Below are positions 322 through 53,929 of a stretch of DNA of 64,000 nucleotides, piece after piece. Source of the stretch: Dakarella massiliensis (lineage in GTDB: Bacteria > Pseudomonadota > Gammaproteobacteria > Burkholderiales > Burkholderiaceae_F); the NCBI RefSeq assembly GCF_001182045.1, contig NZ_CVTY01000006.1, positions 356,086 through 420,085 of the forward strand, written 5' to 3'. Every line of letters begins with the position of its first letter. Position 1 is the first letter of the stretch. The notes under the pieces were generated by a model, which was not told where the DNA came from, did not search any database, and saw only the letters and a program-made list of their open reading frames with translations. Both the position numbers and the translations under genes were made by a program.

Positions 322-607
322 CGCTGCTTCTCCCCTCAAACCTGTCAAATTGACTTGTCAATTTTTGATTGCAACGTCATTAAAAGACAGTTAACCGCCT
401 AAGTCAATATCCTTATCTCTTTAGTGATAGAGGTAAATCGAAACAAAACGTGTTTGGGAGAATGAACTGTGCTTTTTCCTGACAGAATGGGGGATAGAGA
501 GCTCTCTGGAATCCACGGGAAATCAGCGGTTTCTGCGGAGTGGATCCGGGTGCCCCGGCTCAGAAACCATTACTGTGACGCGGATGAATGAAAGGGAGGA
601 TCCCGTG

Positions 608-1066
608 ATGACAGCCTGTGAGAAAGCGATCCGGTACCTGCTCGCCAAAATGGATGAGGAGGCGGGGGATGTCATGACGCTTCCGGTGCTTCAGAAACTC
701 CTCTATTACAGTCAGGGATTTTCTTTGGCGATTACCGGAAAGCCGCTTTTCGAAGAGGATTTCGAGGTGTGGCAGATGGGACCAGTGATTCCGGCGCTTT
801 ATGAGAAATATGGGAAAGAGCCGGCGTTCGGGATTCTGAACCCCTCGGAGACCGGAGACCCGGGACTCACGGAGGAGGAGAAGGATGTGCTTGATCAGGT
901 GTATTTCGTCTATGGGCAGTTTTCCGGGTGGAAACTGAGAGACCTGGTTCTCGCGGATCCATTGATCGCCGGGGCTCCGATCCGGTCCGTGATTCCGAAA
1001 GCCGCGATGAGAGACGCGTTTCTCGCGAGGCTCGAGGTGAGCGGCGCGTACGAGGCGGATTTCTAG
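608..1066 (+). CDS. Panacea-domain (DUF4065, SocA/GepA-like) antitoxin-like protein
   Basis: LQKLLYYSQGFSLAITGKPLFEEDFEVWQMGPVIPALYEKYG matches the Panacea/DUF4065 core. A GGGAGGA SD lies 5 nt upstream of the GTG/ATG at 605/608. The ORF-track start at 575 is probably too long. Confidence 0.6.
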   Translation: MTACEKAIRYLLAKMDEEAGDVMTLPVLQKLLYYSQGFSLAITGKPLFEEDFEVWQMGPVIPALYEKYGKEPAFGILNPSETGDPGLTEEEKDVLDQVYFVYGQFSGWKLRDLVLADPLIAGAPIRSVIPKAAMRDAFLARLEVSGAYEADF

Positions 1067-1141
1067 AGCGAGAGGAAAAGACCGCCAAACGCCCTAAAAT
1101 AGGCACTTTCAGCATCCGGTATTCATCAGGGCAATCCATCT

Positions 1142-2317
1142 ATGGCAGCAGATAACGCTTTTTCATTCGCGATCGTGACGGCGTCCCCGAAGGGGCGCAT
1201 GCTGGAACGGATGCTGGCGAAAGTCCTTAATTGCTATAAGTTCGTCTGGCTTCTTTCTATTCTCAAAATCGTCTCCGGGAAAAAGCGCGAATACATTTCT
1301 TTCAAAGAAATGTCAGCGCGAATGATAGCCACAGCCTGGTATCCGGTTATTTACTTTCGGCTTAACCTCGGATATGCGGACAGCCTGGCCGATGCTATTC
1401 ACGATGTGAAAGCCGAGTGCGGCCTCCCCGATGGCGCGAAGTATGATGAAATTGTGCGGGCTGTTATGGCAATAAAAAATGAAAAGCTGGCTGCCCAGAT
1501 AGAAGAGCTGACAGAATATGTTTGCCCGCGTTTCATCGTGCCTGTTTTCAGTGATGAGCTCGAGGAATTTAGAAAAACCTGCGGGAGCAATAGTAAGTTT
1601 GATGCGGGAAAGAACAGGACCGTTAAGGAACTCAGTCAGAAAGAGTGGAACAGACTTCGGACACCCTACGTGATTGGAGACGAGGGCATCACGCTGACCC
1701 CGGAATGGACGCAGTTCTTCCACGATTTCAACCAGATTATTGCGGAAAGCACGTACTTCAAGCTCACTCAGTACATTCAGCGTCGGAATCCCAGTGTTCC
1801 CGCCATCTCTGAAAAGTTGATTCAGCCGACAAAGCGCAGCAGTCCGGAATTTGATAAGGCGCGGGATTACTGGAGCCTGGTGATTGATAAGAATCCGGAC
1901 GTGTATGACATTTACACCATGCGTCACTTCACAAAGGACGCACTTGATAGCCTGGGGCCGATGTCTGTTGACCACTTTGTCCCCTGGAAGTTCGTGCTGC
2001 ATGACCAGATCTGGAATTTGGTTCCTACGTTCAGGAGCCCAAACAGCAGCAAAAGCGACAACCTCCCGGACTTCGCCTACCTGGATGACTTTTGCTCGGT
2101 GCAGTTCCTCGGTCTTTCAACGATTCGCCGCACTAACCAATTCTCTCATCTGATCGAGGCCTATCGGGATGTGATACCCGACGCGGAAAAGTTTGTGGCG
2201 ATTCTCGAAAACAAAGACGTGTTCAGCCTGCAGTTAAAGAACGCCATTATTCCGCTGCTGCTTCAGGCAAAAAATCAAGGCTTCTCCGACTGGAACAATT
2301 CATACCGGGAAATTTAG
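1142..2317 (+). CDS. HNH/His-Me-finger nuclease-motif protein (DUF1524-like C-terminal motif) with unknown N-terminal domain; candidate toxin partner of the upstream Panacea gene
   Basis: C-terminal VDHFVPWKF...DQIWNLVPTFRSPNSSKSDNLP fits the D-H...N...N..K His-Me finger pattern. It lies 75 bp downstream of the Panacea gene and has lower GC (about 49%) than its neighbours. Confidence 0.5.
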   Translation: MAADNAFSFAIVTASPKGRMLERMLAKVLNCYKFVWLLSILKIVSGKKREYISFKEMSARMIATAWYPVIYFRLNLGYADSLADAIHDVKAECGLPDGAKYDEIVRAVMAIKNEKLAAQIEELTEYVCPRFIVPVFSDELEEFRKTCGSNSKFDAGKNRTVKELSQKEWNRLRTPYVIGDEGITLTPEWTQFFHDFNQIIAESTYFKLTQYIQRRNPSVPAISEKLIQPTKRSSPEFDKARDYWSLVIDKNPDVYDIYTMRHFTKDALDSLGPMSVDHFVPWKFVLHDQIWNLVPTFRSPNSSKSDNLPDFAYLDDFCSVQFLGLSTIRRTNQFSHLIEAYRDVIPDAEKFVAILENKDVFSLQLKNAIIPLLLQAKNQGFSDWNNSYREI

Positions 2318-2598
2318 AGCGGACCCGAGGCATAAACCATCCATAAACTGACGGAAATCTAATTACAGGTGGGTCAGATCCTGTCCGCAAGATGATTGGG
2401 GATGCCAATTCACTAGGCAGATGTGCCAGCATCAATGACTGAGGAAGTCAGTGGAATTCTCTGCCCGGTAGTTCTGGCGCGAAGATAGTCTCTAAGCCTG
2501 ATTTATGGGTTTATTCGGAGGCTCACTTACGTAGGTTGTCAGAGCCTGATGACCCTTTCGGCGGGGAACCGTAGATAACGTCACCAGGCTCTGCCAGG

Positions 2599-3228
2599 TT
2601 ACGAGGCTTGTTCGGGACCAGTCACCGGCTTAGCGATAGCACTCTTCTCTTTGATCCAATTGGTCACGATATCCGGGTCAGCAAGGAACTCGGCGAGCGG
2701 CCAATGCTTGGAGCAGAACTCAAATTGAGGACATTTGCCACTTTGCTGCCAATCAGGTTGAAGAGGGGGCCTGTCAGCTTCTTTAACCATTTTCCAGTCG
2801 CTTTCCTGCAGGCAACGGTACAGATTGACTTCAACCACTGCCTCCTTGCCAGACATTTCCAAAGGATCGGGCTTGGTATTCTTACCTGCACACAAGTCTG
2901 AGTCACTGCGGAAATCGTAGTCGATATAGTTGCGTAAAATCAGCGCTTTATCGCCTTTGATAGCCTTGTTGTGTGTCTTGTCCCGGTAAGCATGAGTCGA
3001 AGCAAATAGCGGCAGATAGTCCCATGCCGAAGTGTCGGATGGGGGGTATGTATCGCGGGGAGGGGTGTAAGTTTCGGTGGGCTTCCAGTACCAGAACTCG
3101 GTGTACAGCGTCTGATAGGCGATCGTATCGAATAGCGGGAGGATACGCATGTAGAAAGCGGCCGCGAGTCTGTGGGCCTGCTGCAGCTGGGTAACCAGCT
3201 TGGTGGTTTGCTGAAGATCGTATGTCAT
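2599..3228 (-). CDS. Hypothetical protein, downstream partner of the NERD-like nuclease gene
   Basis: Uninterrupted ORF. The likely ATG (MTYDLQQ...) is preceded by AAGGA. Its start is 2 bp from the stop of the upstream gene, so the two are translationally coupled. No recognisable motifs. Confidence 0.45.
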   Translation of the reverse strand: MTYDLQQTTKLVTQLQQAHRLAAAFYMRILPLFDTIAYQTLYTEFWYWKPTETYTPPRDTYPPSDTSAWDYLPLFASTHAYRDKTHNKAIKGDKALILRNYIDYDFRSDSDLCAGKNTKPDPLEMSGKEAVVEVNLYRCLQESDWKMVKEADRPPLQPDWQQSGKCPQFEFCSKHWPLAEFLADPDIVTNWIKEKSAIAKPVTGPEQAS

Positions 3229-3248
3229 AGCGGCATCCTTATCCAAAG

Positions 3249-4064
3249 TCAGTGATTCAAAAAGGAGAAATCGTGGGAGGAGAGGCGCAATGTCCCGGCA
3301 TACTTAAGCAGCGCGGTCCAGCCAGCAGTGTGTTCAGCCGGTGAGGTCATTTCCCATCCTGATATCACCCCGCAATCCAAGTGCACCTTTTTTTCTGCGG
3401 GGTAGTCAAACAAGAGCTTCCACTCGGGTATTACTGGTGCCATACCAAAGAGCTCAAATGCCCGCATCCACTCTTCGCGAATGGCGCGATCCTGTCGGCA
3501 GGAGTCAAACTCGGGGGCGGTTTGCAGGAAGTGGCGGAGCGATCCCCATTCACGCAGTGTCATTTGGCGAAAACGTTCGGGCAGCTCCGGATGAGTCAGC
3601 GGGGCGGCAGGAGTATGGCCGAGCGCCACATAGTAGAGCCGGTCTCCATAGGTCTTAACGTCGGTATTGCTAACCACAGCATCGACCTGGTCCTTCCACT
3701 GGTCCTGATGCTGGTCGCCCCCGAACGGGGGCTTGACCTCGATAACCACCAATGAGTTTTTAAACCGAAGTATCACATCGGGCTCAACATGTTTAGGCTC
3801 CTTTTCGGGGTCAGCATGTTCAGGCTTCAATTCCAGGTATGGCCACAGCTCCAGCTTGTCAAAGGTGGAAGGATCAATCGGATTGTCGGCACCAAGCAGG
3901 AAGCGCAGCAGGGCACCCAGAGCGCTGTCAGAGAGGTAGGGCACACGTCCAAAAAAGACGGCAGTCAGCAGATCCTCGCTTCGTTTGAACGCGTCACGCC
4001 AGCTGATAGATTCCTCGTCCTGCTCGATACGGCCAGCCTTGCCATGCAGAATCGCCTGCAGCAT
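3249..4064 (-). CDS. NERD / PD-(D/E)xK nuclease-like protein
   Basis: EPDVILRFKNSLVVIEVKPPFGG is a classic PD...(D/E)xK / NERD signature. The start is set at MLQAILH, with AGGAG 5 nt upstream. Confidence 0.45.
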   Translation of the reverse strand: MLQAILHGKAGRIEQDEESISWRDAFKRSEDLLTAVFFGRVPYLSDSALGALLRFLLGADNPIDPSTFDKLELWPYLELKPEHADPEKEPKHVEPDVILRFKNSLVVIEVKPPFGGDQHQDQWKDQVDAVVSNTDVKTYGDRLYYVALGHTPAAPLTHPELPERFRQMTLREWGSLRHFLQTAPEFDSCRQDRAIREEWMRAFELFGMAPVIPEWKLLFDYPAEKKVHLDCGVISGWEMTSPAEHTAGWTALLKYAGTLRLSSHDFSFLNH

Positions 4065-4660
4065 CGCAGCTCCTCGTGATGTTGATAGTCCTCGTGAACC
4101 GATTTCAGGGCTTCCAGAGCGTTCACGAGTGAAAATCAAGTATGTAAAAAGAGTACGTAAAGAGTCTACTCGCCCGTCATTTATGAATCAAGGTAAATCG
4201 GTTCAAAGAACGGGTCAATTTATGGCCGCGGCAGAAACGGCATGGGAAGAGAGGTGCCGGGTACGAAGGATCCGGACAGCAGAAAACCGCCTCATGACGC
4301 ATAGTCATGCGGAGAATGGCATTGGCTCAAGGGAGTCGAAGACAACAGCTCGCAATCGAAGCTCTGTCTCTTTTTGATTCAGACGGGGGACATCCGGAAT
4401 CGCGCGCATGGATTCAGGGGTGCCGCGGGTCTTTTTTGAAACGCGCTTATCAGGTTCGGTGCCTGATGAAGCGGTAAAGCGGAAAACGTGTGAAGCGTAA
4501 ATCTTAGAAGGAAGTAACGAGGGAACTCTTAAGTTTTGTGCCGTTCCCTCTACGCCATGAAGATCGCTTCAAGGCTGAGGCACATTCGGAAATCGATCGT
4601 TTTACTGTGACACTTCATTTTGGCTGCTCCTATTTACGAAAGTCTCTTGTCGATCCGGTC

Positions 4661-4906
4661 TTAGATGCAGACACCGGAGAGGAGGCTCAGAACGTCGATA
4701 CCCTGGCGGGTCTTGCGGGGAGCGGCGGCCTGTTCGTGGGTCTGGGAGGCGAAGGTGCTCTTCGTCTGGGTTTCCGCCTTGGTGAGGGTGACGGAGCCGT
4801 CGGCCGCGATGCGGAACTCAAGCTGGTTGCCGCTCGCGAGATTCAGGAAATCGCGGATTTCCTTCGGAATAGTGACCTGACCCTTGATAGTAAGACGATT
4901 TGCCAT
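4661..4906 (-). CDS. AbrB/MazE/SpoVT-family antitoxin-like DNA-binding protein (orphan)
   Basis: N-terminal MANRLTIKGQVTIPKEIRDFL is the swapped-hairpin AbrB/MazE motif. No toxin ORF of at least 60 aa lies downstream. Confidence 0.55.
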   Translation of the reverse strand: MANRLTIKGQVTIPKEIRDFLNLASGNQLEFRIAADGSVTLTKAETQTKSTFASQTHEQAAAPRKTRQGIDVLSLLSGVCI

Positions 4907-4935
4907 TTTATTTCTTCCCTTTCGATTTACACGTA

Positions 4936-4977
4936 TAAAAAAAGACAGAGCCGCAATTTTGTTTGCGGCTCTGTCTA
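4936..4977 (-). terminator. Rho-independent terminator (minus strand), likely the thiC 3' end
   Basis: On the minus strand, a GACAGAGCCGCA / TGCGGCTCTGTC 12-bp stem is followed by TTTTTTT. Confidence 0.5.
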
Positions 4978-5221
4978 AGTTGAATCTCTGTTCTGCGGAA
5001 CTTATCTTTCTAACGGGTGTGCAGAACGAGACGCCTTAGCTCTGGAGAGCCGCGTCAGTCGCATGCACATGCTGTCAACGATGAACAGCTGGTTAGACAT
5101 TTGGAAAAGTTCCTGTAACAAGTAAAAACGTATAAGTAACCTTACCCGAGCAATTTTGAAAAGTCAAAATTTTGATTTCGGATAAGGTTTTTGTCGTAGA
5201 GACTCTAAGGAAAAGCGCCCA

Positions 5222-7096
<1,875 letters not shown>

Positions 7097-7224
7097 TTAT
7101 AGGCGGCGAGAAAGACGGAGGGAATAACAGCCGGTATGCAGGGTGGGGTCTTGAGACGTCTCTCAAAAAGAACGCCTTCCGGGAGTTCTCTTAATTCCGG
7201 AAAGCGTCCCGGCTCCCGCACCGC

Positions 7225-7332
7225 TGCATATTCGTTTCCCTCCGACGGTATCAGCCGCATCAGGTTCCACGGGTGTTTCTCAATCAGGAACGCGTTTTAG
7301 TGACAGGCCGCGTGCCCTGATACCCCGAACGT
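7225..7332 (-). ncRNA. TPP (THI-box) riboswitch controlling thiC
   Basis: Minus-strand RNA CGGGGUAUCAGGGCACG...UUGAGAAACACCCGUGGAACCUGAUGCGGCUGAUACCGUCGGAGGGAAACG matches the THI element core (CUGAGA...ACCC...AACCUGAU..GG.UAAUACC.GCG.AGGGAA). Confidence 0.75.
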
Positions 7333-7385
7333 GCGCACCATTCTAAACGGGGTTGAGATCCGAGAGGAGGGGAGGAAACGAAGTT

Positions 7386-33332: not shown

Positions 33333-35240
33333 ATGGCTGACTTGAAAATCCGCTGCGACAAATGCGGATCCGAACTCACGTATAAGCCCGGCACCGAGAC
33401 GCTGGTCTGCGCGTACTGCGGGAATACGGTGAGAATCCCGACCCAGGTCGTGAATCCGGAAGATATTACGGATACCGACCTCATCATCCCGCTTCAGATT
33501 CAGGGGGATGCCCTCACGAACGCTACCCGGGTGTATATGACACAGGGCCAGTTCACGCCGGATGATCTCGTGCAGAAGGCGACGATCACGAAGCAGTGGC
33601 TGAAGTACGTGCCGTTCTATCTCTATCACGGCGAATTCCACGCGAACTGGACCGCGTCCTTTGGCTATAACCGCCGCGAAGGATCCGGGAGCAACAGCCG
33701 CACTGTGACAGACTGGCGTCCGGCGAGCGGCACCGTGAGCGGCCCCTTCAGTCTCCTCGGCTACGCGGGGAACGAGGTCGACAGGAACTGCGCTGATCTT
33801 CTCGCGGATCAGGACCGGTCGAAACTCGTGCCGTATGACGCCAAATTCATGACGGGGTTCCCGAACGACAAATTCGCGCTTTCGGAGCGTGAAGCCTATC
33901 AGACGTATGTCGAAGATCGGGTTGCCGCCCTGGTGGCCTCTGAAGTGAAGGCCAACGCGCAGGGCGATGAGCAGAAAGACTGGCACTGGAGCGGCTCTCA
34001 GTCTTACGAGACGAAAACGCTTTACCTCCCGGTTGGTCTCAGTGTCTTTGAGTACGAAGGGAAGGAATACAAGGTCTGGGTGGACGGCGTGGATCCCACT
34101 CGGTTCACGGGGGATCCTCTTCCGGTAGACGATAAGAAGCAGAAGTCTTCTTACTATGGCTGGATCTCGTTTGGTCTCACCTTGGTTTTCTCAATCGCGT
34201 ATCTCTTCGGGAAAGACGCCGCGCACGCCTCGGGCTGGATGGGAGCCGCGCTCCTTCTTACCGCGCTTTATGCCCTGATCCGGAAGTTCGTGATGAGCTC
34301 CTACTCGAAGAAACTCCGGAAGGCGTTTCTCACGCAGGTTCAGGCGGCGGATATTGATACATCGCACGCCACTCAGGAGCAGCTTGCGGAAATCTCTAAG
34401 AGCTATAAGCTCCCCGAGAAGCCGTTCATCGCGAATACGGCGAACGACAAGTTTATCCTCCCGATTCTTTCAATCGCGGGTCTGGCCTGTATCGTGGGAC
34501 CTGGCGCGGTGGAAACGACGGGGAGCGGCACCGCTGTGACGACGTCCGCTCCGGCGAGAGCGCCGAAAACCGCGGCGCTTGCTGAAACCGCCAGTTCATC
34601 GGCTGCTTCCAGTGAAGAGAAGAAAGAGGAGGATGACGTTCTCATTCATCATGGTCATGGGGCTGATGAAATTGCCTTGAATATTGCTGAGGCAATTCAT
34701 CCCTACCCAATGGATCAAGCTTCCGGGATTTTCGACAAGATTCTAGATAGCATGAAGACAAATCCTGCCCGTGTTCAGACCTACATAAACCAAATCCGGG
34801 GATTGCCGGTTCCGCCTAAGGGCGATCGGAAAGCTTCACGGGCCTTCAATCGTGAAGCACTGGAGCTTCTTCATAGTGGTCAGACAAATGCGGCGATCGA
34901 TAAATTCGCAGAGGCTGTCAAGGCTGATCCGACGGATATTGAAGCAGTCAATAATCTGGGGTTTGCGCTTCTTAAAGATGAGCGTGACGGAGAGGCTGAA
35001 TCTGTTCTCTATTCCGCTTTGACGCTTAATCCAACTCGGGCGGAAGGGTGGTTTAACCTCGGAGATGCCCTGGCGAAACAGGGGCTTGTGGGCGCGCCTG
35101 AAGCCATGATGCTGGGCTACAGGTTCTGCAACGACAACCGCAAGCAGAAAACGAAGCAGCTTTGGAATCGTCTGATTTCAGATCCGAGCACCAATCCTAA
35201 GGTGGCTGATGCTATGGTCACTGCACTGAGCACGATTTAG
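33333..35240 (+). CDS. Zn-ribbon / TM / TPR-repeat multidomain protein
   Basis: CDKCGSE...CAYCGN zinc ribbon at the N-terminus, hydrophobic helices at about aa 290-330 and 370-390, and C-terminal TPR-like repeats (EAVNNLGFALL..., EGWFNLGDALAKQG). The codon-composition break at about 34620 is described in the findings. Confidence 0.6.
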   Translation: MADLKIRCDKCGSELTYKPGTETLVCAYCGNTVRIPTQVVNPEDITDTDLIIPLQIQGDALTNATRVYMTQGQFTPDDLVQKATITKQWLKYVPFYLYHGEFHANWTASFGYNRREGSGSNSRTVTDWRPASGTVSGPFSLLGYAGNEVDRNCADLLADQDRSKLVPYDAKFMTGFPNDKFALSEREAYQTYVEDRVAALVASEVKANAQGDEQKDWHWSGSQSYETKTLYLPVGLSVFEYEGKEYKVWVDGVDPTRFTGDPLPVDDKKQKSSYYGWISFGLTLVFSIAYLFGKDAAHASGWMGAALLLTALYALIRKFVMSSYSKKLRKAFLTQVQAADIDTSHATQEQLAEISKSYKLPEKPFIANTANDKFILPILSIAGLACIVGPGAVETTGSGTAVTTSAPARAPKTAALAETASSSAASSEEKKEEDDVLIHHGHGADEIALNIAEAIHPYPMDQASGIFDKILDSMKTNPARVQTYINQIRGLPVPPKGDRKASRAFNREALELLHSGQTNAAIDKFAEAVKADPTDIEAVNNLGFALLKDERDGEAESVLYSALTLNPTRAEGWFNLGDALAKQGLVGAPEAMMLGYRFCNDNRKQKTKQLWNRLISDPSTNPKVADAMVTALSTI

Positions 35241-35304
35241 CAGCGTGAAAGCGGTCAGCAGTAAAAGAAGGCAATGACCTGACTGGTCAGTGTCAGGAAA
35301 CGGG

Positions 35305-35343
35305 AGCCCTGAGGATTATCTTCAGGGCTCCTGTTTTTTTCAC
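35305..35343 (+). terminator. Rho-independent terminator
   Basis: GGAGCCCTGA...TCAGGGCTCC stem followed by TGTTTTTTT. Confidence 0.6.
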
Positions 35344-35595
35344 CGCTATGAGGAATTGAGGGTAATGGGTACGTCTTTTCTTCGGTCCTTGTTATGCTGT
35401 CGGGGAACCACTTTGCTGTATTCCGGGCGCGGCGAGATGCGAATCAGTTAAAAAACACGGTTCTGACCTCACCATCAGAGTGGACCTCCTCCCGCAGAAG
35501 CCCTGAAATCAATGAAGGCGGCACAGGTGATTAGAATAAATCGCGTAAAGCATTGCTTAAAACCCATCGAAATATCTCTCAATTCATCCTAGATC

Positions 35596-38451
35596 ATGAA
35601 GATTTATAAGAAGAAAAGCATCAGGAAAGGTCAGAACAGCGTCAAGTGTTATCAGATATTGGGTAAAACCGTTCTCAGGAAAGAAAAGAATGACGCCATT
35701 AAGAAATATGCTTTCTTCGGGAAAAAATGGGGTATTTTCAAGCAGAAAAAATCGGAATTAATTGAAGGAAAATCCGTTAAACAAGCGGTCGAACCCATAC
35801 CGCAGGCGGCTAAGCCCATCCCGGAAGACCCATACAAGAAATGGGTCAGGCGTCTTGATACTATTTACGATCAGGACGTGGTGATGATGAAGGAGGCAAT
35901 TTCCAAATTTAAATTGCTTCCTAAATTCAGTGTTGTCATGCCGGTATATAACACCGACATAGGATTTTTAGAGAAAGCTATCCATAGCGTTCTGGATTAG
36001 ACCTACCCTTATTGGGAATTATGCATTGCGGACGACGCGTCTCCTGATCAAACAGTCCGAGACTGTATCGCGAGCTATGCGGCAATTGATAACCGGATCA
36101 GGTACGTTTTCCGTAAGAAAAATGGGAATATCTCGGTTTCATCGAATGACGCGATTAATCTGGCGACCGGGGAATTTATCGTCCTGTTTGATCATGATGA
36201 TATTTTGGATATATCAGCCTTGTTTTGCCTGGCTGAGAGGATAAACGCCCTCGGCGGTAAGGTTGACCTGCTGTATACCGATGAAGACAAGATAGATGAA
36301 GACGGAAACCGGTTTAATTCCTACTTCAAACCGGATTGGAACCGGGCGCTCTTTCTCCAGCAGAATTTTATTGCGCATCTCGGATGCTACAGAACCGCTA
36401 TCGCGAAAGAGATCGGCGGATTCAGAGCCGGTTTTGAAGGATCTCAGGATTACGATTTCGCGCTTCGGTTTATCGCTCGCATTTCAGAGTCAGGAATCAG
36501 CCACATCGACCGGATTCTGTACCATTGGCGCAAGGTTCCGCAGCATCATTCGTTCAGCACTGATTTTCAGGATAAATCTGACGCGGCCGCGAAGCGGAGC
36601 CTGGAAGAGCTGTTCGCCCCTCGGGGATGGAAAATTGAGCCATCCAAAACGATGGTTGGCTGTTGGCACTGGGTGCTGCCGGAGCCTGCGGACGAACCCC
36701 TGATCAGCATTATTAATCCCACCAAAAATCATGTGGAACTAATAAAACGATGTGTTGACAGTATTCTCTCCAAAATCACTTATAAGAATTATGAAATTCT
36801 GATTGTGGATAATAAGAGTGAAGAAGAATCAACCATTGAGTATTACAAAGAGCTGAGCGGAAAAGAAAAAGTCAGGCTCCTGCATTTTGATGAGCCGTTC
36901 AATTACTCAAAGATAAATAATTTTGCCGCCCGTTCCGCTCAAGGGGATTATCTCTTGCTGCTGAATAATGACACCGAGGTGATCAGCGGCGATTGGCTTG
37001 ACTCGTTTATTAAGAGATTCGCCGCCGATCCGACCGTCGGTGTGATTGGCGCGAAACTGCTCTACCCCGATGGTTCGATCCAGCATGCGGGTGTTGTGAC
37101 GGGAATCTACAAGGTGGCTTCTCATCCGTTCAGATTCCAGAAAAACGATCCTTCCTTTGGCTACTGCAGTCTGGACCGGTATGTCAGTGCGGTGACCGGG
37201 GCCTGTCTGATCATCAGGAAAAGCTTATTTGATCAGGTAGGCGGGCTGGACGAAGAGAAATTGCGGATTTCCTTTAACGACGTGGATCTATGCCTGAAGG
37301 TAAAGCAACGTGGGTACCACATCCTGTGGACGCCGGATGTCATTCTGAACCACTATGAAAGCCAGACGAGAGGAAAGGACGAGACGCCGAAGAAAAAGCT
37401 GGTGAACTTCAATGAACGGAAGGCCATGCTCGAGCGGTACGGGGACAGTCTCTTTTTTGACGAGTTTTATAACTCGAACTTATCCCTCGATTCTGAAGGC
37501 TATGAATTTACCCATTTCCCGAGGAAGCAGAAGCCTTGGAGAAAAGACAGTATCGATTTTCTCTGCCCGTTTCACCGCGGTGACGTGATTGTCGGATTAG
37601 CAGTGGCGGTAACCTACAGCGCGCTATCCGATAAGAAGCTGTCTTTCCATATATCCAGGGATTTATATGACTGGATTGCGCCTTTCCTGTATTCGGGTCT
37701 GTTCAGAATTATCAGAAATGAAACAGGGTTGCCTGCTGCCGCGGAAACGTTTGGAAAATTTAATGAAGCGATGGAAAGGGTTGTCACAAGACCTGATTTT
37801 TCGGGGAAATTAGCGACCTCTCATAATGTTCTTCCCTTTGAGCAGACAGGGACTGACATTGTCACGAGCATGCTGCTTGGGCTTGGACTTCCTGCTGATA
37901 CACGGCTGAAAAGGCTGTCTGCTTTCAGGGTTCCCCGGAAGAGAGAACATAAAAAAAGGATCCTCATCCATCCTTATGGCTCATGGAAACTGAAAACTCT
38001 GCCTTTGGAGACGATAGAAAAAATCATTGAGATCGCTCATCAGCAGGGGTATTCGGTGACTCAGGTGGGAGGCGCTTCGGATAAGAAAATCGCAGGATTT
38101 GATGACTATTGCCTCAGGAATGAAGACGTTGTTTATTGGTTCTCGCTCTTGAAGGACTCCGCCTGCATTGTGTGCTGCGACAGCTGGTTCAGCCATTTCG
38201 CGGCCTTTATCGATTTCCCCTCAATCACTTTTTATGGCTCCACCTCCGCGCGGCACTGTTCCTCAAGGGAGCACTTTGAGGCGGGATGGTCCAAGTACCT
38301 GGTGATTGATTCCAGCTGTGAACTGGCTCCCTGCAATTCTCTGACCTGCAAGCTTGATAACGGCAGTGTCTGCAAGGGGTTCAGGTGGGATAACAGGATC
38401 GCTGAATTTATTGCTGAACTGTCAGAGGAGGGGAAAGACATCGGTGAGTAG
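35596..38451 (+). pseudogene. Approximately 950-aa tri-domain glycosyltransferase (GT2 + GT2 + GT-B/GT9-like) interrupted by an in-frame TAG at 35998-36000
   Basis: FSVVMPVYNTDIGFLEKAIHSVLD*TYPYWELCIADDASPDQ: the stop replaces the conserved Gln of the GT2 motif and the frame is otherwise continuous. Second GT2 block is LISIINPTKNH...ILIVDNKSE. The C-terminal block ILIHPYGSWKLKTLP... is heptosyltransferase-like. The ORF-track piece 36205.. starts at TTG. Confidence 0.6.
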
Positions 38452-38563
38452 TGCCGGTGTTTCTGACAGGGTGGCTGATTTTCCGAGCAGGAAAGTGGAA
38501 ACAAAAACCCCGAAAGCGTGATTGCTTCCGGGGCTTGGATACCTGCACGGTTTACGGCGAATC

Positions 38564-40240
38564 TCAGTTAGTGAAGCGGTAAATCTTTTGGAACTCCGCA
38601 TCTTCTTTTTCCGGACGGATGATGTATTTTCCGCCCTCGTTTGCGGAGATGCGGAAGGAATCAGTGCCTGCCGCGAAATGATGCATCAGACGGCTGCTTC
38701 TCTCATCGCACTGGGTTTCGAAGAGCGAGCACCCGAGGAAATACTGTTCCGTCTTTCGGATTCCCAGCACGTCAAGGAGCGTCGGGGCAAGACTGATACT
38801 GGTTGTGCCTTTGGCGTCCAAAATCTGCGGCTTCACCATCTTTCCATACAGAATGAGCGGAATCTCAAAGTTCGACCGTTCAGTCTTCTGATGGAAGGAC
38901 TTGCGGTATTCGGGGGTCGGAATCACGACTCCATGGTCTGACGTGATGACGAGGAGCGTGTTGTCGTAATACGGACTCGTTTTGAACCAGGAGATAAAGT
39001 CCCCGAGCCAGTGATCGAGGTTATGGAATTTGTTGTAGTAGCTGTTTGACCCATCGCCGTATTTCAGGTCTGGGCTGTCAACGCCATGATGAGTGCCGGC
39101 GGTGTACATGCCGATAAAGAAGGGCTTATTGTCCTTGTAGTCGGAGAGCACCTGTTTCAGACTCTGGAAAGCGAATTTATCGCTCCGCGGGGGTTCTCCC
39201 GTCCAGCCCAGGTCATCAGCGCCGTACACACGGGTGAAGGCGAAAGTTTTTAAGTACGAGGTCATGTTGCCCGTACTGAGTTCGTTCGACAGGAAGTACG
39301 TATTGAAATGATGCTGATTCAGAATCGCAGGCACTGACACCAAACCGGATTTCGATAATTTTTTGATCTTATCGTGATCCATCTGACCGAACCCCTGGTT
39401 ACCGACATCCGGGGAAAAACCCGCTTTATATTGCCATAACGAATACAGCTGCCCCCGCAGCCCCCGATAGGTAGCGTAGGTGTGGTTGTAGTAATGATCA
39501 AATGCCAGGCTGTCTTTATAGAGCTGGTCATACGTGGGGGTCAGATTGCGGGATGAATGATTTTTGTAATCCATGACCTCAGCAGAAAACCCCTCAACAA
39601 AAATCACGATGACATTTTTGATCGGTGTGTCTGGTGAGAAATAATCCGCCCCGGCGGTCTCGAGCAGGCTTTGGCTGACGACCGCAGGTTTCCGATATTG
39701 CTCACGGATGGCGGCATTTTGTTTGGGGACGAAGTAAACGTCGTGAATCACGGCTTTCGCGAGGTGCTTGGTGCTCTTCAGAACGCTGTTCTGAGTGAAG
39801 GCCAGAACGATCATCAGCACACCGACCACGGATCCGGCGGCCACGTAGATTTTCTTCCTCACTTTCACGTTTTTCGTGGAGAAAATGGCGAAGAACGAGG
39901 GGAAAAACACGATGGCGAAAATAAAAGCGAGCCAGATCTGTGCTTTCACCCCGATCGCATTGTGGGACGACAGATTCATCACGGTGAGCGGCACGATATA
40001 GATGCCGGTTGACACGATAGAGCACATCTGAAGGGCGACGATGAACTGAAAGATGCCCCAGAGCGCGGCGCGGATGATGAACGGGAAGAGCAGAACCGCC
40101 GCGTACACCAGGGTCGCCTCCGCGCAGTATTTGGCGAAGTGGAGGTCAGTTCCTGAAAGCTTGAAAACCGTCAGAACTGTGAGAAACGTGACGATTAAAG
40201 GAAGCAGCAGCCTGGCGCAGATTTCGGATCGAAGAGACAT
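38564..40240 (-). CDS. LTA-synthase-family membrane sulfatase-fold transferase (phosphoglycerol/phosphoethanolamine transferase-like)
   Basis: Five N-terminal TM helices plus a sulfatase domain (NVIVIFVEGFSAEVM, TAGTHHG, ITSDHG). Confidence 0.75.
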   Translation of the reverse strand: MSLRSEICARLLLPLIVTFLTVLTVFKLSGTDLHFAKYCAEATLVYAAVLLFPFIIRAALWGIFQFIVALQMCSIVSTGIYIVPLTVMNLSSHNAIGVKAQIWLAFIFAIVFFPSFFAIFSTKNVKVRKKIYVAAGSVVGVLMIVLAFTQNSVLKSTKHLAKAVIHDVYFVPKQNAAIREQYRKPAVVSQSLLETAGADYFSPDTPIKNVIVIFVEGFSAEVMDYKNHSSRNLTPTYDQLYKDSLAFDHYYNHTYATYRGLRGQLYSLWQYKAGFSPDVGNQGFGQMDHDKIKKLSKSGLVSVPAILNQHHFNTYFLSNELSTGNMTSYLKTFAFTRVYGADDLGWTGEPPRSDKFAFQSLKQVLSDYKDNKPFFIGMYTAGTHHGVDSPDLKYGDGSNSYYNKFHNLDHWLGDFISWFKTSPYYDNTLLVITSDHGVVIPTPEYRKSFHQKTERSNFEIPLILYGKMVKPQILDAKGTTSISLAPTLLDVLGIRKTEQYFLGCSLFETQCDERSSRLMHHFAAGTDSFRISANEGGKYIIRPEKEDAEFQKIYRFTN

Positions 40241-45583: not shown

Positions 45584-46332
45584 TGAGTAACCTACTGTCA
45601 GAGTGGTTAGGATGAGAATTGGCTTTTCAGCTGTGTGTGAGTGAGCATTTTACTAGGGAATGTTAATCCGCGCTTAATAAAACCTAGATCTAGTGCTTAT
45701 GGGAGCGGATCAGGCACCAACTGAAAAGGGACGGAAGAGATGTCTTTCACTACGGAACTGAGCCCGGCTGCGTGACCCGATAAGGGACGGAAAAACAGCG
45801 GGATGCGGTTTGAGACGTGACTTCTTCAGAGCGACATCTCAAAAGACATTCTCTTCACAACTGACACCGTTTCTCACCCTCCTCAAGGGGTAGAACCGAG
45901 GGGGAATTGCGGTTGAAGGCAGAAAGTGCCGGATGAATTTCAGACTACAGAAATGTGGGAACGCTGAAAAACGCAGGTAATGAAAAAGCCCCAGGGGTTA
46001 GATGTCACGGACCATATAGGCGGACTTTTCCTGGGGCTGTTGCTGGAAGAGATGCTCGCGGTTTCGGGCTTTACCGGCCCGACTGGAGATTCTTCCGATC
46101 GCAAGAAAAGTATCGCTCTTTTCGAAGAAAAACGCATCAAGGAAAATCCGCTTTTAAGACTCGGATAAGAATGCGATAATAAAAAGAAATGCTGTTGAAA
46201 ATAAATAAAAATAAAGATCCGCACTGAAGCTCTCAGACTACCCGCCGCTGCGCCATAATGGTTGAGACACAGAGCGCCCCGGGAGGCTCCTCTCTTTCGG
46301 GGCACAAAACTCACAAATTACAGGAGTCAGAC

Positions 46333-46791
46333 ATGACGAAAGCCCCGATTTTCGAGATCAATGATTCAGACGGCAAGCCCTTCAAGATGGAAGATCACTT
46401 CCCGATGGTGCTCTACTTCTACCCGAAGGACAGCACCTCCGGCTGTACTACAGAAGCGAAGGAATTCACCGCTCTGATCCCGGAGTTCCAGAAGCTCGGG
46501 TACGACGTTGTCGGTGTCTCGCGTGACTCCGAAAAGAGCCACCAGAACTTCATCTGCCGCTACACCCTCGCGATCACGCTCCTCTCGGACCCGGAAGAAA
46601 AAGCCTGCAAGGCGTACGACGTGATCAAAGAGAAGAACATGTACGGAAAGAAGGTGATGGGCGTTGTCCGCAGCACGTTCCTGATCGATAAAGACGGAAA
46701 CCTCGTGAAGGAATGGCGGAAGGTGAAGGCGGCTGGCCACGCCCAGGCGGTTCTCGACTTCATTAAGAATCCGGAAGCGGCCAACGCCTGA
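46333..46791 (+). CDS. bcp: Thiol peroxidase Bcp (AhpC/TSA peroxiredoxin family)
   Basis: YFYPKDSTSGCTTEA peroxidatic Cys motif. CAGGAG SD 6 nt upstream of the ATG at 46333. Confidence 0.85.
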   Translation: MTKAPIFEINDSDGKPFKMEDHFPMVLYFYPKDSTSGCTTEAKEFTALIPEFQKLGYDVVGVSRDSEKSHQNFICRYTLAITLLSDPEEKACKAYDVIKEKNMYGKKVMGVVRSTFLIDKDGNLVKEWRKVKAAGHAQAVLDFIKNPEAANA

Positions 46792-47023
46792 CCGTAATCA
46801 GTCCTGATTCAAACAGAAACCCGGAGGGTTCTTCAAGAGAGCCGTCCGGGTTTTCGTTTGCGTAATGACAGGATTCGTGCGGAGCCCGCGAGTAAGAGGC
46901 TTTCTGAAAAGTAGCGTTATTCTCATCTTTTGTTTTTGCTATTACATAATTTCACGACTTAGAGTTGCTTTGTCGTTTGTTGTAACTTAATGATTTAACG
47001 GCGCTATCCAAAATTATTAAAGG

Positions 47024-47500
47024 GTGTTTAATAATTTTGACGCTGATAAATACGCAAAACATAATGAAAAAATAAAAAATAGTTATTTTAGTAGTACGGA
47101 AAATAGAACCCCCCATTCTTGTATAATTGGCCGTCAAGATTTTGTCAAAAGCTCTCAGAAAAAAATGACGATTAATGTTCAATGCGTCTACGGGGATGAC
47201 GACATCGAGAATGTCAGAAGCTGCATCATTCCGAATCTTGCTGCTGCCACAAAGGAAAAAGTCATATTTCTGACAATGAATTACGACGCTGCCGGCAAAA
47301 GGCTTGACTCCGGGGATCCGTATGGCTGCGAAGTCTGGGATATTCCGAAGACATCAGACGGTCGGACAGGCTTTGATGAGGAAATCACCACGTTTGAAGA
47401 TTGGTATCTTCAGATGCTCGCTTTCCTGACTTTTGGTGGGCCGGGCGGCAGGTATAAAGAGAGAAAGAGGAAATATCGGGAAAACTTTCGAAGACTCTGA
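47024..47500 (+). CDS. Hypothetical protein (start uncertain; possibly 47165 at MTINVQ)
   Basis: ORF at the edge of the low-GC island with no recognised motifs. Confidence 0.3.
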   Translation: MFNNFDADKYAKHNEKIKNSYFSSTENRTPHSCIIGRQDFVKSSQKKMTINVQCVYGDDDIENVRSCIIPNLAAATKEKVIFLTMNYDAAGKRLDSGDPYGCEVWDIPKTSDGRTGFDEEITTFEDWYLQMLAFLTFGGPGGRYKERKRKYRENFRRL

Positions 47501-47630
47501 AATGATAAGAATTGTCAGCTTTGATTAGTGGCAAGGCATTTCAACCCGCACTTGGTATCTTCCAAAGTTGATCTCCAATATGCAACCAGTAGGGATTATT
47601 TCCCTAGTTGAATTAAAAGATAGCCGCTAA

Positions 47631-49520: not shown

Positions 49521-50130
49521 CAGAGGATCGGTGCTGATGAAATCATAGGTTCAGTCGTTTTTGACTGCTTTAAAATAAGTCAGATTCACTGACATTCTCG
49601 GCGTAGCTGAACTGATTGGCACCGCTCTTATGATGCCGTATGCCCTTGGTCTTACATTTGGAGCTCATCATCTCAAGGAATTTTGGAGCTGGAAGAATGT
49701 TTTTTCATTTTGCTCACATTCTTTATGTTGTCCTGCCGGGGAGTGACGCGCTGTTTGATCGATTCGATCAGAGGATATTAAGTATGTGTTTTTGGTCAGA
49801 TCCACTAAGTGCAAGGAGCCCAGAATCATAAAAGGGGACTTCTTTTCAATCAAGATTTCCTGGAGGCTGTCGATTTTGATGAGATTTAATAAAAGTTTTC
49901 CTATAATTACACCATACGCATCAATCGCATGCCAGGTCTGACTACCTAAATTCCCGCTCAGATAGCTTATTTTTATTTATAAAATTAATAGATCTGGGTT
50001 AAAAGTACAGATAACATATCGGGAATTTAGGCTATAAACAGCGTTGCTAATAGTGATACTTGTGATTTTTTATTCCTATTTTAAATAAAATTCGGGGTTT
50101 CAACGTGATTGCAAGAGAGCAGAGTCCTGA

Positions 50131-51261
50131 TGCAGACCATAAAATTGCGTAGTAATACCGACGTATAAAGCAAAGAAGCATATATTAGGTGTAATTGATA
50201 GGATCGGCCCTGAAGTTGACAGAATTTATGTTGTAGATGATTGTTGCCCAGAAAATTCAGGAGCATTTGTCGAAAAAAATTGCTCTGATCAGCGAGTTTC
50301 TGTTATTAGAAATAGTGTAAATCAAGGTGTTGGTGGAGCTGTGATGACAGGGTATAGAGCGGCTCTCAAAGACGGAATCGATATCATTGTTAAGATAGAT
50401 AGTGATGGGCAGATGGCCCCCGCATTAATAATTGATTTTGTTGGTCCTATAGTAGACGGAGAAGCAGATTACACTAAGGGAAACAGATTCTTCGAATTAG
50501 AGAAGGTAAAATCCATGCCAAGAATCCGACTGATTGGGAATGCCATTCTCTCTTTTATGTGTAAGCTATCATCTGGATATTGGAACCTATTTGATCCTAC
50601 GAATGAATTTACCGCCATACATGCTGATGTAGCACGTCGGTTGCCTTTTAATAGTATAAGTAAAAGGTATTTCTTCGAAAGCGATATATTATTCCGTTTA
50701 AATACACTGAGGGCCGTTGTGATTGACATCCCAATGGAAGCTAAATATGGAGATGAGATAAGTAATTTAAAAATTTCTAGAATAGTCGGTGAATTTTTAG
50801 TTAAGCATTCAAAAAATTTTATAAAAAGAATTTTTTATAACTATTATCTGAGAGATATGTCCTTGGCATCGATTGAGTTGCCGGTCGGTCTATCACTCCT
50901 GCTATTTGGAACTATATACGGTATATATCATTGGGTACACTCCACGACACTGGGAATTACGACTCCAGTTGGAACAGTAATGATCGCTGCCTTAACTATT
51001 CTGATGGGAGTTCAACTGGTGCTGGCATTTCTGTCTTATGATATAGCCAACATTCCTAATAGACCTGTTCACGTCCATAATCACTATAAAATAATGGCCA
51101 ATAATCGATTCTTTATTTATATTTTAGTCGGTATTATCTGTGCCGTAATCGATATAGGGCTGATGGGACTATTAATCCATCAACACATAAATTATTTTCT
51201 AGCGGCTACTATTGGTTTTTTGCTGGATTTATTGTTAATTATTTTTTACATACTAAGATAA
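50131..51261 (+). pseudogene. GT2 polyprenyl-phosphate glycosyltransferase (GtrB/ArnC-like) with N-terminal frameshift near 50150; reading frame runs on into the GtrA-like gene
   Basis: ATG CAG ACC ATA AAA TTG (MQTIKL) at 50131 is in frame +1 relative to the ...VVIPTYKAKKHI...VDDCCPEN...DSDGQ body. One extra base near 50150 restores MQTIKLVVIPTYK. The body has two C-terminal TM helices. Confidence 0.6.
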
Positions 51262-51458: not shown

Positions 51459-51524
51459 ATATATTTAATTTTTATATTTATTTTTTTGTATTAATTATTA
51501 GATGCCGTAAAAGCAACAGCAAAA

Positions 51525-53681: not shown

Positions 53682-53706
53682 CCCCTAAAGACAAGGAGTT
53701 CCTCTG

Positions 53707-53910: not shown

Positions 53911-53929
53911 GCGATTCGGGAGGATTCCC

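What the first reader, a model, noticed from the sequence alone, without database searches (positions are those of the whole stretch)
575..2317. Panacea-domain antitoxin-like gene paired with an HNH nuclease: candidate PanA-PanT type toxin-antitoxin or abortive-infection module
The first gene carries the Panacea/DUF4065 core (LQKLLYYSQGF...W.MGPVIP.LY). The gene 75 bp downstream has a C-terminal His-Me finger (VDHFVPWKF...NLVP...NSSKSDN) and a roughly 270-aa N-terminal region that I cannot place in any family. Panacea domains are known to neutralise many unrelated toxin folds, so an adjacent nuclease of unassigned type is a plausible new toxin partner. The nuclease gene is also compositionally distinct (about 49% GC against about 60% for the backbone).
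Basis: partly seen in the sequence, partly recalled or inferred. Interest (0 to 1): 0.7.

Follow-up and report, generated by a model that had tools for sequence, protein, structure and literature searches.

The report
Catalogued, untested Panacea–HNH nuclease gene pair
A small "antidote-like" gene sits just upstream of a DNA-cutting enzyme gene in a gut bacterium's defence island; this likely poison–antidote pair was already listed, untested, in a 2022 survey of the same species.

Summary
ORF A (most likely 608..1066, 152 aa) is a stand-alone Panacea/DUF4065 protein (PF13274, E=1.5e-18). Exactly 75 nt downstream, ORF B (1142..2317, 391 aa) has a complete Cas9-type HNH_4 motif at aa 256-309. 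Its N-terminal ~255 aa match no sequence family.

The "new toxin partner" claim does not hold. The Panacea protein is 100% identical to Dakarella massiliensis WP_022444358.1. Kurata et al. 2022 (Dataset S1) already list a PanA + "HNHc superfamily" pair in that species: cluster T70, antitoxin first, 75-nt gap, "notest".

New here:
- The HNH family is large. Its usual neighbours are a methyltransferase(-HIT), MazG or NUDIX gene. Panacea was found beside it only in the Sutterellaceae clade.
- Sister strains carry two tandem HNH paralogs after PanA.
- The HNH genes are a fast-diverging cassette, repeatedly knocked out in wild strains while PanA stays intact.

Best reading (about 0.5): PanA restrains a DNA-cleaving HNH effector. 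Toxicity, neutralisation and binding remain untested.

The parts
608..1066 (+). panA: stand-alone Panacea/DUF4065 protein, 152 aa (the longest ORF starts at GTG 575). The Panacea core is about aa 28-114 of the 152-aa form. There is no extra N-terminal domain, and a C-terminal tail of ~38 aa.
   Evidence: PF13274 E=1.5e-18. NCBIfam SocA_antitoxin reaches only 48 bits against a cut-off of 190. phrog_1281 E=2e-29. Exact match to WP_022444358.1 / CDE51147.1, seen on 682 contigs. SD GGGAGG at 594-599.
1067..1141 (+). 75-nt spacer and leader. Its last ~55 nt are conserved upstream of every HNH paralog (HNH-1 and HNH-2) in sister strains, so the leader was duplicated together with the gene.
   Evidence: Alignment A4. 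No promoter-like or terminator-like consensus site. No stable RNA fold, z = +1.5. No Rfam match.
1142..1906 (+). HNH protein aa 1-255: helical and winged-helix-like region with no sequence family. Includes the family-invariant residues Y32-K33 and W66 (with Y67 nearly invariant; motif AWYPV) and a variable helical stretch at aa ~91-180.
1907..2068 (+). HNH_4 (beta-beta-alpha-metal, Cas9-type) nuclease core, aa 256-309. Catalytic candidates are D277, H278 (nt 1970-1975), N292, N301 and K304.
   Evidence: PF13395 E=3.3e-9. Profile alignment to Cas9 HNH domains. These residues are invariant or nearly so across 59 homologs.
2069..2317 (+). C-terminal helical extension of the HNH protein (aa 310-391) plus the stop codon. 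The end motif LLLQAKNQGF..W is conserved.
   Evidence: Model secondary structure. Alignments A1 and A2.
2599..3246 (-). Neighbour on the opposite strand, convergent with the HNH gene: PDC-M15B, part of a PADLOC phage-defence candidate system.
   Evidence: PDLC04466 E=7e-86.
3249..4139 (-). Neighbour: PDC-M15A.
   Evidence: PDLC04456 E=2.6e-100.
4661..4906 (-). Neighbour: AbrB/MazE/PrlF-type small DNA-binding protein with no toxin ORF downstream. It marks the far edge of the low-GC island, before thiC.
   Evidence: PF15937 and PF04014. TIGR01439. No minus-strand ORF longer than 43 aa in 4140-4660.

Best explanation
This is a two-gene PanA-HNH module in a small chromosomal defence island of Dakarella massiliensis or a close relative (Sutterellaceae, human gut).

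The downstream protein is a DNA nuclease. It combines a winged-helix-type DNA-binding or reader region with an intact Cas9-type HNH active site.

The upstream stand-alone Panacea protein is most likely made from the same transcript. It probably holds the nuclease in check by direct binding, as shown for other stand-alone PanA proteins. A trigger such as phage infection would then release or destabilise it, and the nuclease would cut DNA.

Shown here: domain identities, intact catalytic residues, gene order and spacing, recurrence of the pair, defence-island setting, and recurrent natural knock-outs of the nuclease.

Inferred: co-transcription, binding, toxicity, the trigger, and the substrate.
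For: - Panacea and HNH_4 calls are well above cut-off, and the catalytic D-H...N...N set is intact.
- Same strand, 75-nt gap, no terminator-like site.
- The same pair, with the same gap, is catalogued as PanAT cluster T70. It carries a T number, the label the paper gives to clusters kept after its reciprocity filter (PMC8832971).
- PanA is followed by an HNH family member in every Sutterellaceae-type locus that extended past PanA. This holds for two diverged cassette types: a single 391-aa gene, or 406-aa plus 389-aa tandem paralogs.
- The two PanA alleles differ at 13-15 residues and track the cassette type.
- PDC-M15A/B lie next door.
- Flanks are ~90% identical in DNA between strains, but the HNH genes are only ~70% (65% aa). 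This is the pattern of a fast-evolving conflict gene.
- At least six independent early knock-outs of the HNH gene next to PanA were seen. In the four point-mutant alleles (three nonsense, one frameshift) and the A-tract frameshift allele, PanA is intact; the insertion-type contigs begin inside HNH-1, so PanA could not be checked there. The truncated HNH-1 form is much more common than the intact one. This points to a cost of the nuclease.
- Some family members carry fused regulatory modules (HTH_3, Peptidase_S24), suggesting the nuclease is generally kept under control.
- The family is rare in viral contigs: 6 loci.
Against: - There is no experimental test of toxicity, neutralisation or complex formation for this cluster ('notest' in the 2022 dataset).
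- In 80 genome loci of the wider HNH family (29-37% identity), no Panacea gene is adjacent. 26 of the 82 loci classified (these 80, less one duplicate, plus three metagenomic loci) have none of the recurrent partners within 1.5 kb. The nuclease may therefore not be toxic by itself.
- The pairing is seen only in one bacterial family. In all my loci with enough flank it sits at one chromosomal site, so co-occurrence could be by descent.
- More distant Panacea relatives (43-45% identity) are not followed by this nuclease.
- 75 nt is long for a type II TA pair, and the HNH gene has no obvious Shine-Dalgarno sequence.
- Knock-outs also fit simple relaxed selection.
Confidence: 0.5

Rival explanations
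1. The HNH protein is a restriction-type nuclease that reads a DNA modification or a foreign-DNA feature through its N-terminal winged-helix/SBD-like domain. That would make it type IV-like, possibly sensing phosphorothioate or another modification, and harmless to its own host. PanA would then be a sensor or regulator rather than an antidote, or have no role in controlling it.
For: - The family has invariant Y32-K33 and W66 with nearly invariant Y67 (the P of AWYPV is only a majority residue). This loosely recalls the H116-R/K117 and Y164-P165-F-W pocket residues of SBDs (PMC6224610).
- The usual partner methyltransferase's best curated match is the dnd-associated methyltransferase TIGR04096 (E 1e-17, below cut-off).
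- The Synechocystis pSYSM homolog sits among DUF4007, a cysteine desulfurase and a dnd-associated methyltransferase.
- About a third of family loci have none of the recurrent partners, as expected for type IV enzymes.
- Neighbouring MazG, NUDIX and HIT enzymes could act on modified nucleotides.
Against: - Sequence identity is 6-9%, and no SBD-type sequence family hits.
- The HNH here is the Cas9-like HNH_4 type. It lacks the Cys4 zinc site described for ScoMcrA (sequence; PMC6224610).
- No dnd or ssp family appears among the 25 most frequent Pfam families of the 98 adjacent genes; only the top 25 of 99 are listed.
- A frequent adjacent methyltransferase fits a classical restriction-modification logic better than a type IV enzyme.
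- Recurrent knock-outs suggest a cost to the host.
Confidence: 0.28
2. The two genes are independent neighbours in a defence island. PanA is an orphan, or pairs with nothing here, and the HNH nuclease is a separately acquired cassette.
For: - The HNH cassette is exchanged or diverges independently of its flanks: ~70% against ~90% DNA identity.
- Each HNH paralog carries its own conserved ~55-nt leader, which could hold its own promoter.
- All co-occurrences I could inspect with enough flank are at one chromosomal site in close relatives.
- Kurata et al. found only about half of DUF4065 proteins in TA-like pairs.
Against: - PanA is never seen without a following HNH gene across two diverged cassette types.
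- The 75-nt PanA-HNH spacer is identical in length and nearly identical in sequence in the window, L005 and L006.
- There is no terminator-like site.
- The pair carries a T number, the label for clusters kept after the published reciprocity filter, and is reported in a second genus.
Confidence: 0.15
3. PanA acts like SocA of the type VI SocAB system. It would be a protease adaptor that delivers the nuclease to ClpXP for continuous degradation, rather than an inhibitor by binding. This is a variant mechanism within the toxin-antitoxin reading.
For: The only curated NCBIfam hit is SocA_antitoxin (E 1e-12). Pfam names the domain 'Antitoxin SocA-like'.
Against: The score of 48 bits is far below the equivalog cut-off of 190. 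The PanA proteins tested by Kurata et al. and Ernits et al. form complexes with their toxins and neutralise them directly.
Confidence: 0.07

Closest known systems
PanAT toxin-antitoxin systems, specifically predicted cluster pT90/T70 'HNHc superfamily' of Kurata et al. 2022 (PNAS 119:e2102212119, Dataset S1)
   Same: Same species (Dakarella massiliensis), with a PanA protein identical to a RefSeq entry of that species. Same order (antitoxin first), same 75-nt gap, and same CDD-level label for the partner. PanA has no extra N-terminal domain ('noNTD').
   Different: Nothing differs in kind; the window is another strain of the catalogued locus. That entry is a prediction only ('notest'). I could not retrieve WP_022444357.1 to confirm sequence identity with ORF B. 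The link rests on species, the adjacent accession number, the gap length and the domain label.
ScoMcrA / SprMcrA / Hga: SBD-(SRA)-HNH type IV phosphorothioate-dependent restriction endonucleases
   Different: There is no sequence-level relationship. The HNH is of the Cas9-like HNH_4 type without the Cys4 zinc site. The wider family usually has a methyltransferase(-HIT) neighbour, which type IV enzymes do not need.
Cas9 HNH domain (Pfam HNH_4)
   Same: It is the closest sequence relative of the catalytic core. D-H, N and N align with SpCas9 D839-H840, N854 and N863; the Cas9 numbering is from my own knowledge.
   Different: There is no RuvC domain, no guide-RNA-binding lobes and no CRISPR context. 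Only the ~55-residue core is shared.
SocAB type VI toxin-antitoxin system (Caulobacter)
   Same: The antitoxin carries the same Panacea/DUF4065 domain.
   Different: The score is far below the SocA equivalog cut-off. The partner is an HNH nuclease, not the SocB replication-clamp inhibitor.
Classical restriction-modification pairs (nuclease plus protective methyltransferase)
   Same: In the wider family, 36 of 82 loci have a class I SAM methyltransferase within 1.5 kb. It is often overlapping and often fused to HIT.
   Different: The window has no methyltransferase; PanA sits in the adjacent position instead, though upstream, whereas the MTase-HIT gene is always downstream. The methyltransferases are not of recognised DNA-methyltransferase Pfam families.

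Membership tests
PanAT (Panacea-containing toxin-antitoxin, Kurata et al. 2022) | The antitoxin candidate carries the Panacea/DUF4065 domain | tested here: met
   PF13274 E=1.5e-18, 68 bits against a cut-off of 25.7.
PanAT (Panacea-containing toxin-antitoxin, Kurata et al. 2022) | Two adjacent genes on the same strand, at most 100 nt apart, in an operon of no more than three genes | tested here: met
   The gap is 75 nt. The next genes are on the opposite strand. Sister strains have a three-gene form, PanA-HNH1-HNH2.
PanAT (Panacea-containing toxin-antitoxin, Kurata et al. 2022) | [quoted passage not shown] | tested here: inconclusive
   The pair is seen in several metagenomic lineages with PanA 90-100% identical. 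Where the flank was long enough, all sit at the same site. The second genus (Mesosutterella) comes only from the published table. No pair was found outside Sutterellaceae.
PanAT (Panacea-containing toxin-antitoxin, Kurata et al. 2022) | The partner is toxic when expressed alone, and PanA neutralises it | not testable with these tools
   Marked 'notest' in the published dataset. The only indirect hint is the recurrent natural knock-outs of the nuclease, with PanA intact wherever it could be seen.
PanAT (Panacea-containing toxin-antitoxin, Kurata et al. 2022) | Physical PanA-PanT complex | not testable with these tools
   Co-folding was not possible. The structure tool reports no interface measure.
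HNH / His-Me finger nucleases (Pfam HNH_4) | Beta-beta-alpha-metal core with the catalytic His and the metal-binding Asn/Asp residues | tested here: met
   PF13395 E=3.3e-9. D277, H278, N292 and N301 align to Cas9 HNH domains and are invariant or nearly so in 59 homologs. In the model, strands 274-278 and 293-297 are followed by helix 298-304.
SBD-HNH type IV phosphorothioate-dependent restriction enzymes (ScoMcrA-like) | Sulfur-binding domain with the conserved pocket (H116, R/K117, Y164, P165 in ScoMcrA numbering) | tested here: inconclusive
SBD-HNH type IV phosphorothioate-dependent restriction enzymes (ScoMcrA-like) | HNH domain with a Cys4 zinc-finger fold (C484/C489/C527/C530 in ScoMcrA) | tested here: not met
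   There are no cysteine pairs around the motif at aa 256-320 (sequence). The feature is described in PMC6224610.
SocAB type VI toxin-antitoxin | The antitoxin reaches the curated SocA equivalog score | tested here: not met
   NF047745 scores 48.1 bits against a cut-off of 190.
   No such Pfam hit at E <= 0.1.
Known defence-system nucleases in PADLOC v2 (for example Septu PtuB, Zorya ZorE) | Match to a PADLOC model other than the generic HNH core | tested here: not met
   Only weak Cas9 HNH-core matches, E 2e-4 to 0.03.

The most novel reading that the evidence does not exclude
The ~370-aa 'reader + Cas9-type HNH' proteins would form a large, uncharacterised family of defence nucleases (881 clusters at 50% identity; at least 589 matching stretches in species-representative genomes). 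Their self-harm would be controlled by interchangeable neighbouring modules: a dnd-like methyltransferase(-HIT), MazG, NUDIX, fused HTH or S24 domains, or, in Sutterellaceae, a Panacea protein. In this reading Panacea has replaced a modification enzyme as the immunity factor of a restriction-like nuclease. That would link restriction-modification logic to toxin-antitoxin logic within one family.
Probability: 0.2. Interest if true: 0.6.

Novelty: already known. Interest (0 to 1): 0.33.

Why it matters
If the pair works as a toxin-antitoxin or abortive-infection module, it would add a DNA-cleaving HNH enzyme to the confirmed partners of the Panacea antitoxin domain. None of the toxin domains named in the main text of the 2022 paper is an HNH DNase.

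It would also give a handle on a large nuclease family that currently carries only a generic "HNH endonuclease domain-containing protein" label.

The natural series of alleles in gut metagenomes offers ready-made material for testing cost and benefit. That series includes single or tandem nuclease genes and repeated knock-outs, with PanA intact wherever it could be seen.

As a prediction, however, the locus is already in the literature, so the window adds detail rather than a discovery.

Tried and rejected
1. **Structured RNA or attenuator in the 75-nt spacer.** A GCCCT-AAAAT-AGGGC hairpin is visible in sister strains. However, folding energies are no better than shuffles (z +0.4 to +1.5). There is no Rfam match and no terminator-like or promoter-like site. 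Rejected.

2. **The window's single HNH gene as a clean recombinant of the tandem HNH-1/HNH-2 pair.** Sliding identity shows it is closer to HNH-2 almost throughout (66% against 53%), with no sharp breakpoint. Not supported. It is best seen as a third diverged allele.

3. **Linkage of the HNH family to PDC-M15 beyond this clade.** L039 (a Sutterella MAG) has downstream genes of similar size, but BLAST finds no similarity. Rejected.

4. **N-terminally truncated HNH products as evidence of knock-outs.** Two of the four inspected for the window-type gene are scaffold gaps of Ns (L097, L099). Only L098 and L100 are real lesions.

5. **Co-folding PanA with the nuclease.**
   - An alignment with an artificial linker aligned poorly.
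   - I did not submit that alignment. The structure tool returns no interface measure and would probably refuse a non-window sequence.

6. **Foldseek against AFDB50.** The library was unavailable. Foldseek against the PDB found only the Cas9 HNH core.

7. **Phage homing-endonuclease reading.** The family is nearly absent from 2.9 million viral contigs, with 6 loci. The PHROGs hit is marginal. Rejected.

8. **Retrieving accession numbers for ORF B.** No accessions were returned for the cluster members.
Full report
**1. What is in the sequence**

The region holds two same-strand ORFs.

ORF A is listed as 575..1066 from a GTG, giving 163 aa. The likely start is ATG 608, giving 152 aa, for three reasons:
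- A GGGAGG box at 594-599 lies 8 nt upstream.
- All gene calls on related contigs give 152 aa.
- The 152-aa product is an exact match to a RefSeq protein.

ORF A matches Pfam SocA_Panacea (PF13274) at E=1.5e-18. It matches the curated SocA equivalog only weakly, at 48 bits against a cut-off of 190.

After a 75-nt gap (1067..1141), ORF B runs 1142..2317 (391 aa).
- Its only sequence-family match is HNH_4 (PF13395) at aa 256-309, E=3.3e-9.
- PADLOC, NCBIfam and PDB sequence searches see only the Cas9 HNH core.
- In those alignments D277-H278, N292 and N301 sit at the catalytic positions.
- These residues, with S302-S303-K304, are invariant or nearly so in 59 homologs. The active site looks intact.

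However, the whole stretch 362..5221 is low (51.5%), PanA is 56.2%, and the window averages 53.8%, with 58-62% over most of 6-24 kb. The low-GC unit is an island, not one gene.

**2. Where it comes from, and what is already published**

The window corresponds to a 172-kb human-associated metagenome contig.
- The PanA protein is identical to WP_022444358.1 / CDE51147.1. These are named "Panacea domain-containing protein, Dakarella massiliensis" and "SocA family protein [Sutterella sp.]".
- It occurs on 682 contigs.

The supplementary table of Kurata et al. 2022 (PMC8832971) lists the following:
- For D. massiliensis ND3: PanA WP_053101820.1 paired with WP_022444357.1.
- For Mesosutterella multiformis: WP_118076410.1 paired with WP_116270642.1.
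- Both are assigned to toxin cluster pT90/T70, annotated "HNHc superfamily" by CDD.
- Both have order A|T, intergenic distance 75, and are marked "notest".

T-numbered clusters are those that passed the paper's reciprocity filter against chance neighbours.

The species, the gap, the order, the domain label and the adjacent accession number together make it very likely that this is the same locus. I could not fetch WP_022444357.1 to prove identity. The main text of that paper, and of the follow-up NetFlax paper, does not discuss an HNH partner of PanA.

**3. Neighbourhood**

Convergent with the nuclease gene are PDC-M15B (2599..3246) and PDC-M15A (3249..4139), matched at E=7e-86 and 2.6e-100 to PADLOC defence-candidate models.

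Next come a ~520-nt stretch without an ORF and an AbrB/PrlF-type gene (4661..4906) with no toxin partner. After these, thiC and its TPP riboswitch begin the high-GC backbone. The pair therefore lies in a small defence island between a flavoprotein gene and thiC.

**4. Variation among close relatives**

Sister strains carry, at the same site: PanA - HNH-1 (406 aa) - HNH-2 (389 aa) - M15B - M15A - AbrB - thiC. Their PanA is 90-91% identical to the window's.
- The window's nuclease is 66% identical to HNH-2 and 53% to HNH-1. The two paralogs are 52% identical to each other.
- Flanking DNA is ~90% identical between the two locus types, but the nuclease DNA is only ~70%.
- The last ~55 nt upstream of each nuclease gene are conserved, including between HNH-1 and HNH-2, so the duplication carried the leader.

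The nuclease genes are repeatedly broken in wild strains.
- Window-type gene: K33 to TAG (L098), and loss of one A from the A5 run at ~1280-1284 (L100 plus 8 similar places).
- HNH-1: two different nonsense changes, a 1-bp deletion, and a junction to foreign sequence at codon ~52 (L101-L105 plus 10 similar places).
- The truncated HNH-1 product is indexed far more often than the intact one.
- PanA is intact in L098, L100 and L101-L103; the L104/L105 contigs begin inside HNH-1 and do not reach PanA.

This pattern is what one expects if the nuclease is costly and the antidote is harmless. It would also fit relaxed selection.

**5. The nuclease family at large**

The full-length architecture is widespread.
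- 479 clusters at 90% identity were found by word-seeded search.
- 881 representative clusters match the N-terminal 250 aa alone, and nearly all of those listed are about 350-400 aa long.
- 17 plasmids carry it.
- Only 6 loci were found in 2.9 million viral contigs.

All are annotated only as "HNH endonuclease domain-containing protein".

I inspected 82 loci for neighbours within 1.5 kb.

| Neighbour | Loci |
|---|---|
| Class I SAM methyltransferase, often overlapping and often fused to HIT | 36 |
| MazG-like gene | 12 |
| NUDIX, PLD-helicase-DUF3427 or Schlafen-type helicase | a few |
| None of these | 26 |
| Panacea | 2 (both Sutterellaceae-type metagenome loci) |

- A Pfam scan of 98 same-strand adjacent genes confirms the Panacea result: 2 hits, against 29 methyltransferase and 22 HIT hits.
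- Rare fusions add an N-terminal HTH_3 or a C-terminal Peptidase_S24 domain.
- More distant Panacea relatives are not followed by this nuclease. This fits the partner swapping described for Panacea.

**6. Structure**

With the 59-sequence alignment, the model is confident: mean pLDDT 91.9, pTM 0.85.
- Foldseek finds only the HNH core, so no solved structure shares the whole architecture.

Three weak hints point toward DNA phosphorothioation:
- The SBD-like fold.
- The partner methyltransferase's best curated match, the dnd-associated methyltransferase TIGR04096. The match is E 1e-17, covers the first 85 model positions only, and is below cut-off.
- The Synechocystis pSYSM homolog, which lies among DUF4007, cysteine desulfurase and dnd-associated methyltransferase genes.

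Against this:
- The margin over generic winged helices is small.
- The HNH type differs from ScoMcrA's zinc-finger HNH.
- No dnd or ssp family appears among the 25 most frequent families of the adjacent genes; only the top 25 of 99 are listed.

I treat this as a lead, not a finding.

**7. Most likely mechanism**

I favour a PanA-restrained nuclease effector, at a confidence of about 0.5.
- PanA and the nuclease would be made together.
- Stand-alone Panacea would bind and silence the nuclease, as shown for other stand-alone PanAs.
- An unknown trigger would free the nuclease to cut DNA.

The domains, the intact active site, the layout, the recurrence and the natural knock-outs are shown. Co-transcription, binding, toxicity, the trigger and the substrate are inferred.

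The main rival (about 0.28) is that the nuclease is a restriction-type, possibly modification-reading enzyme that does not harm its host. PanA would then be a regulator or sensor at most. Independent neighbours (about 0.15) and a SocA-like protease-adaptor variant (about 0.07) remain possible.

**8. Verdict**

The "new toxin partner" claim is not: the same pair in the same species is already catalogued as an untested PanAT candidate.

The added value here is descriptive:
- a corrected start for panA;
- the island context;
- the intact Cas9-type active site;
- the tandem paralogs, the fast-diverging cassette and the repeated knock-outs;
- the finding that the nuclease family normally keeps other company.

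Interest is modest unless the experiments listed under next steps show toxicity and neutralisation.

Noticed in passing
window 2599-4139 (- strand): A complete PDC-M15A/PDC-M15B pair (a PADLOC phage-defence candidate system) lies convergent with the HNH gene. The matches are very strong (E 2.6e-100 and 7e-86), but neither protein has a confident Pfam family.
   Followed up: partly
window 4140-4906: An AbrB/MazE/PrlF-type antitoxin-like gene (4661-4906, - strand) has no toxin ORF downstream. About 520 nt (4140-4660) carry no ORF longer than 56 aa. It could be an orphan antitoxin or the regulator of the PDC-M15 operon.
   Followed up: partly
window 7220-7337 (- strand): A TPP riboswitch (RF00059, 58 bits, above the gathering score) lies upstream of thiC (5222-7081). 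This is ordinary.
   Followed up: yes
window 34000-40000 and 46000-54000: Two further low-GC islands (down to 36% GC) encode surface-polysaccharide functions: RgpF rhamnan synthesis, GT2/GT9 glycosyltransferase, DUF2142 membrane protein and a sulfatase-family enzyme. Several of their ORFs have no family.
   Followed up: partly
L089-L093, L101-L105 (sister strains); the equivalent position in the window is 1142-2317: Sister strains carry two tandem HNH paralogs after PanA (406 aa and 389 aa, 52% identical). The first is inactivated by at least four independent early lesions: two nonsense changes, one frameshift and one insertion junction. The truncated form is much commoner than the intact one.
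   Followed up: yes
L098 and L100; window ~1238-1240 and ~1280-1284: The window-type HNH gene also has natural null alleles: K33 to TAG, and loss of one A from an A5 run. PanA is unchanged next to them.
   Followed up: yes
HNH-1 of sister strains (for example L089 6535-7755), aa ~335-345: C-terminally truncated HNH-1 products end at aa 338 or 344, at a poly-lysine (poly-A) tract (KNKKKKKAD). This could be slippage-prone phase variation or a sequencing artefact.
   Followed up: no
L007-L086 (genome loci of the wider HNH family): The usual same-strand neighbour of the nuclease is a class I SAM methyltransferase, often fused to a HIT domain. Its best curated match is the dnd-associated methyltransferase TIGR04096 (below cut-off). 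MazG-like and NUDIX genes also recur. This looks like an undescribed multi-gene module.
   Followed up: partly
L095 (Synechocystis sp. PCC 6803 plasmid pSYSM, 21843-23219): An HTH_3-fused homolog (WP_011153553.1) lies among DUF4007, a BrxC-like P-loop protein, a LAGLIDADG endonuclease, MNT/HEPN-like and RelE/HigA pairs, a cysteine desulfurase, AAA+DUF4276 and a dnd-associated methyltransferase.
   Followed up: no
P0320, P0316, P0066, P0079 (homologs): Rare fusions of the nuclease occur to a C-terminal Peptidase_S24 (LexA/CI-type autoprotease) domain or an N-terminal HTH_3 domain. This hints at built-in regulation of the nuclease.
   Followed up: partly
window 4902-4977 (+): A weak Rfam match to Listeria sRNA rli40 (22.7 bits against a gathering score of 100). 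I take it as chance.
   Followed up: yes
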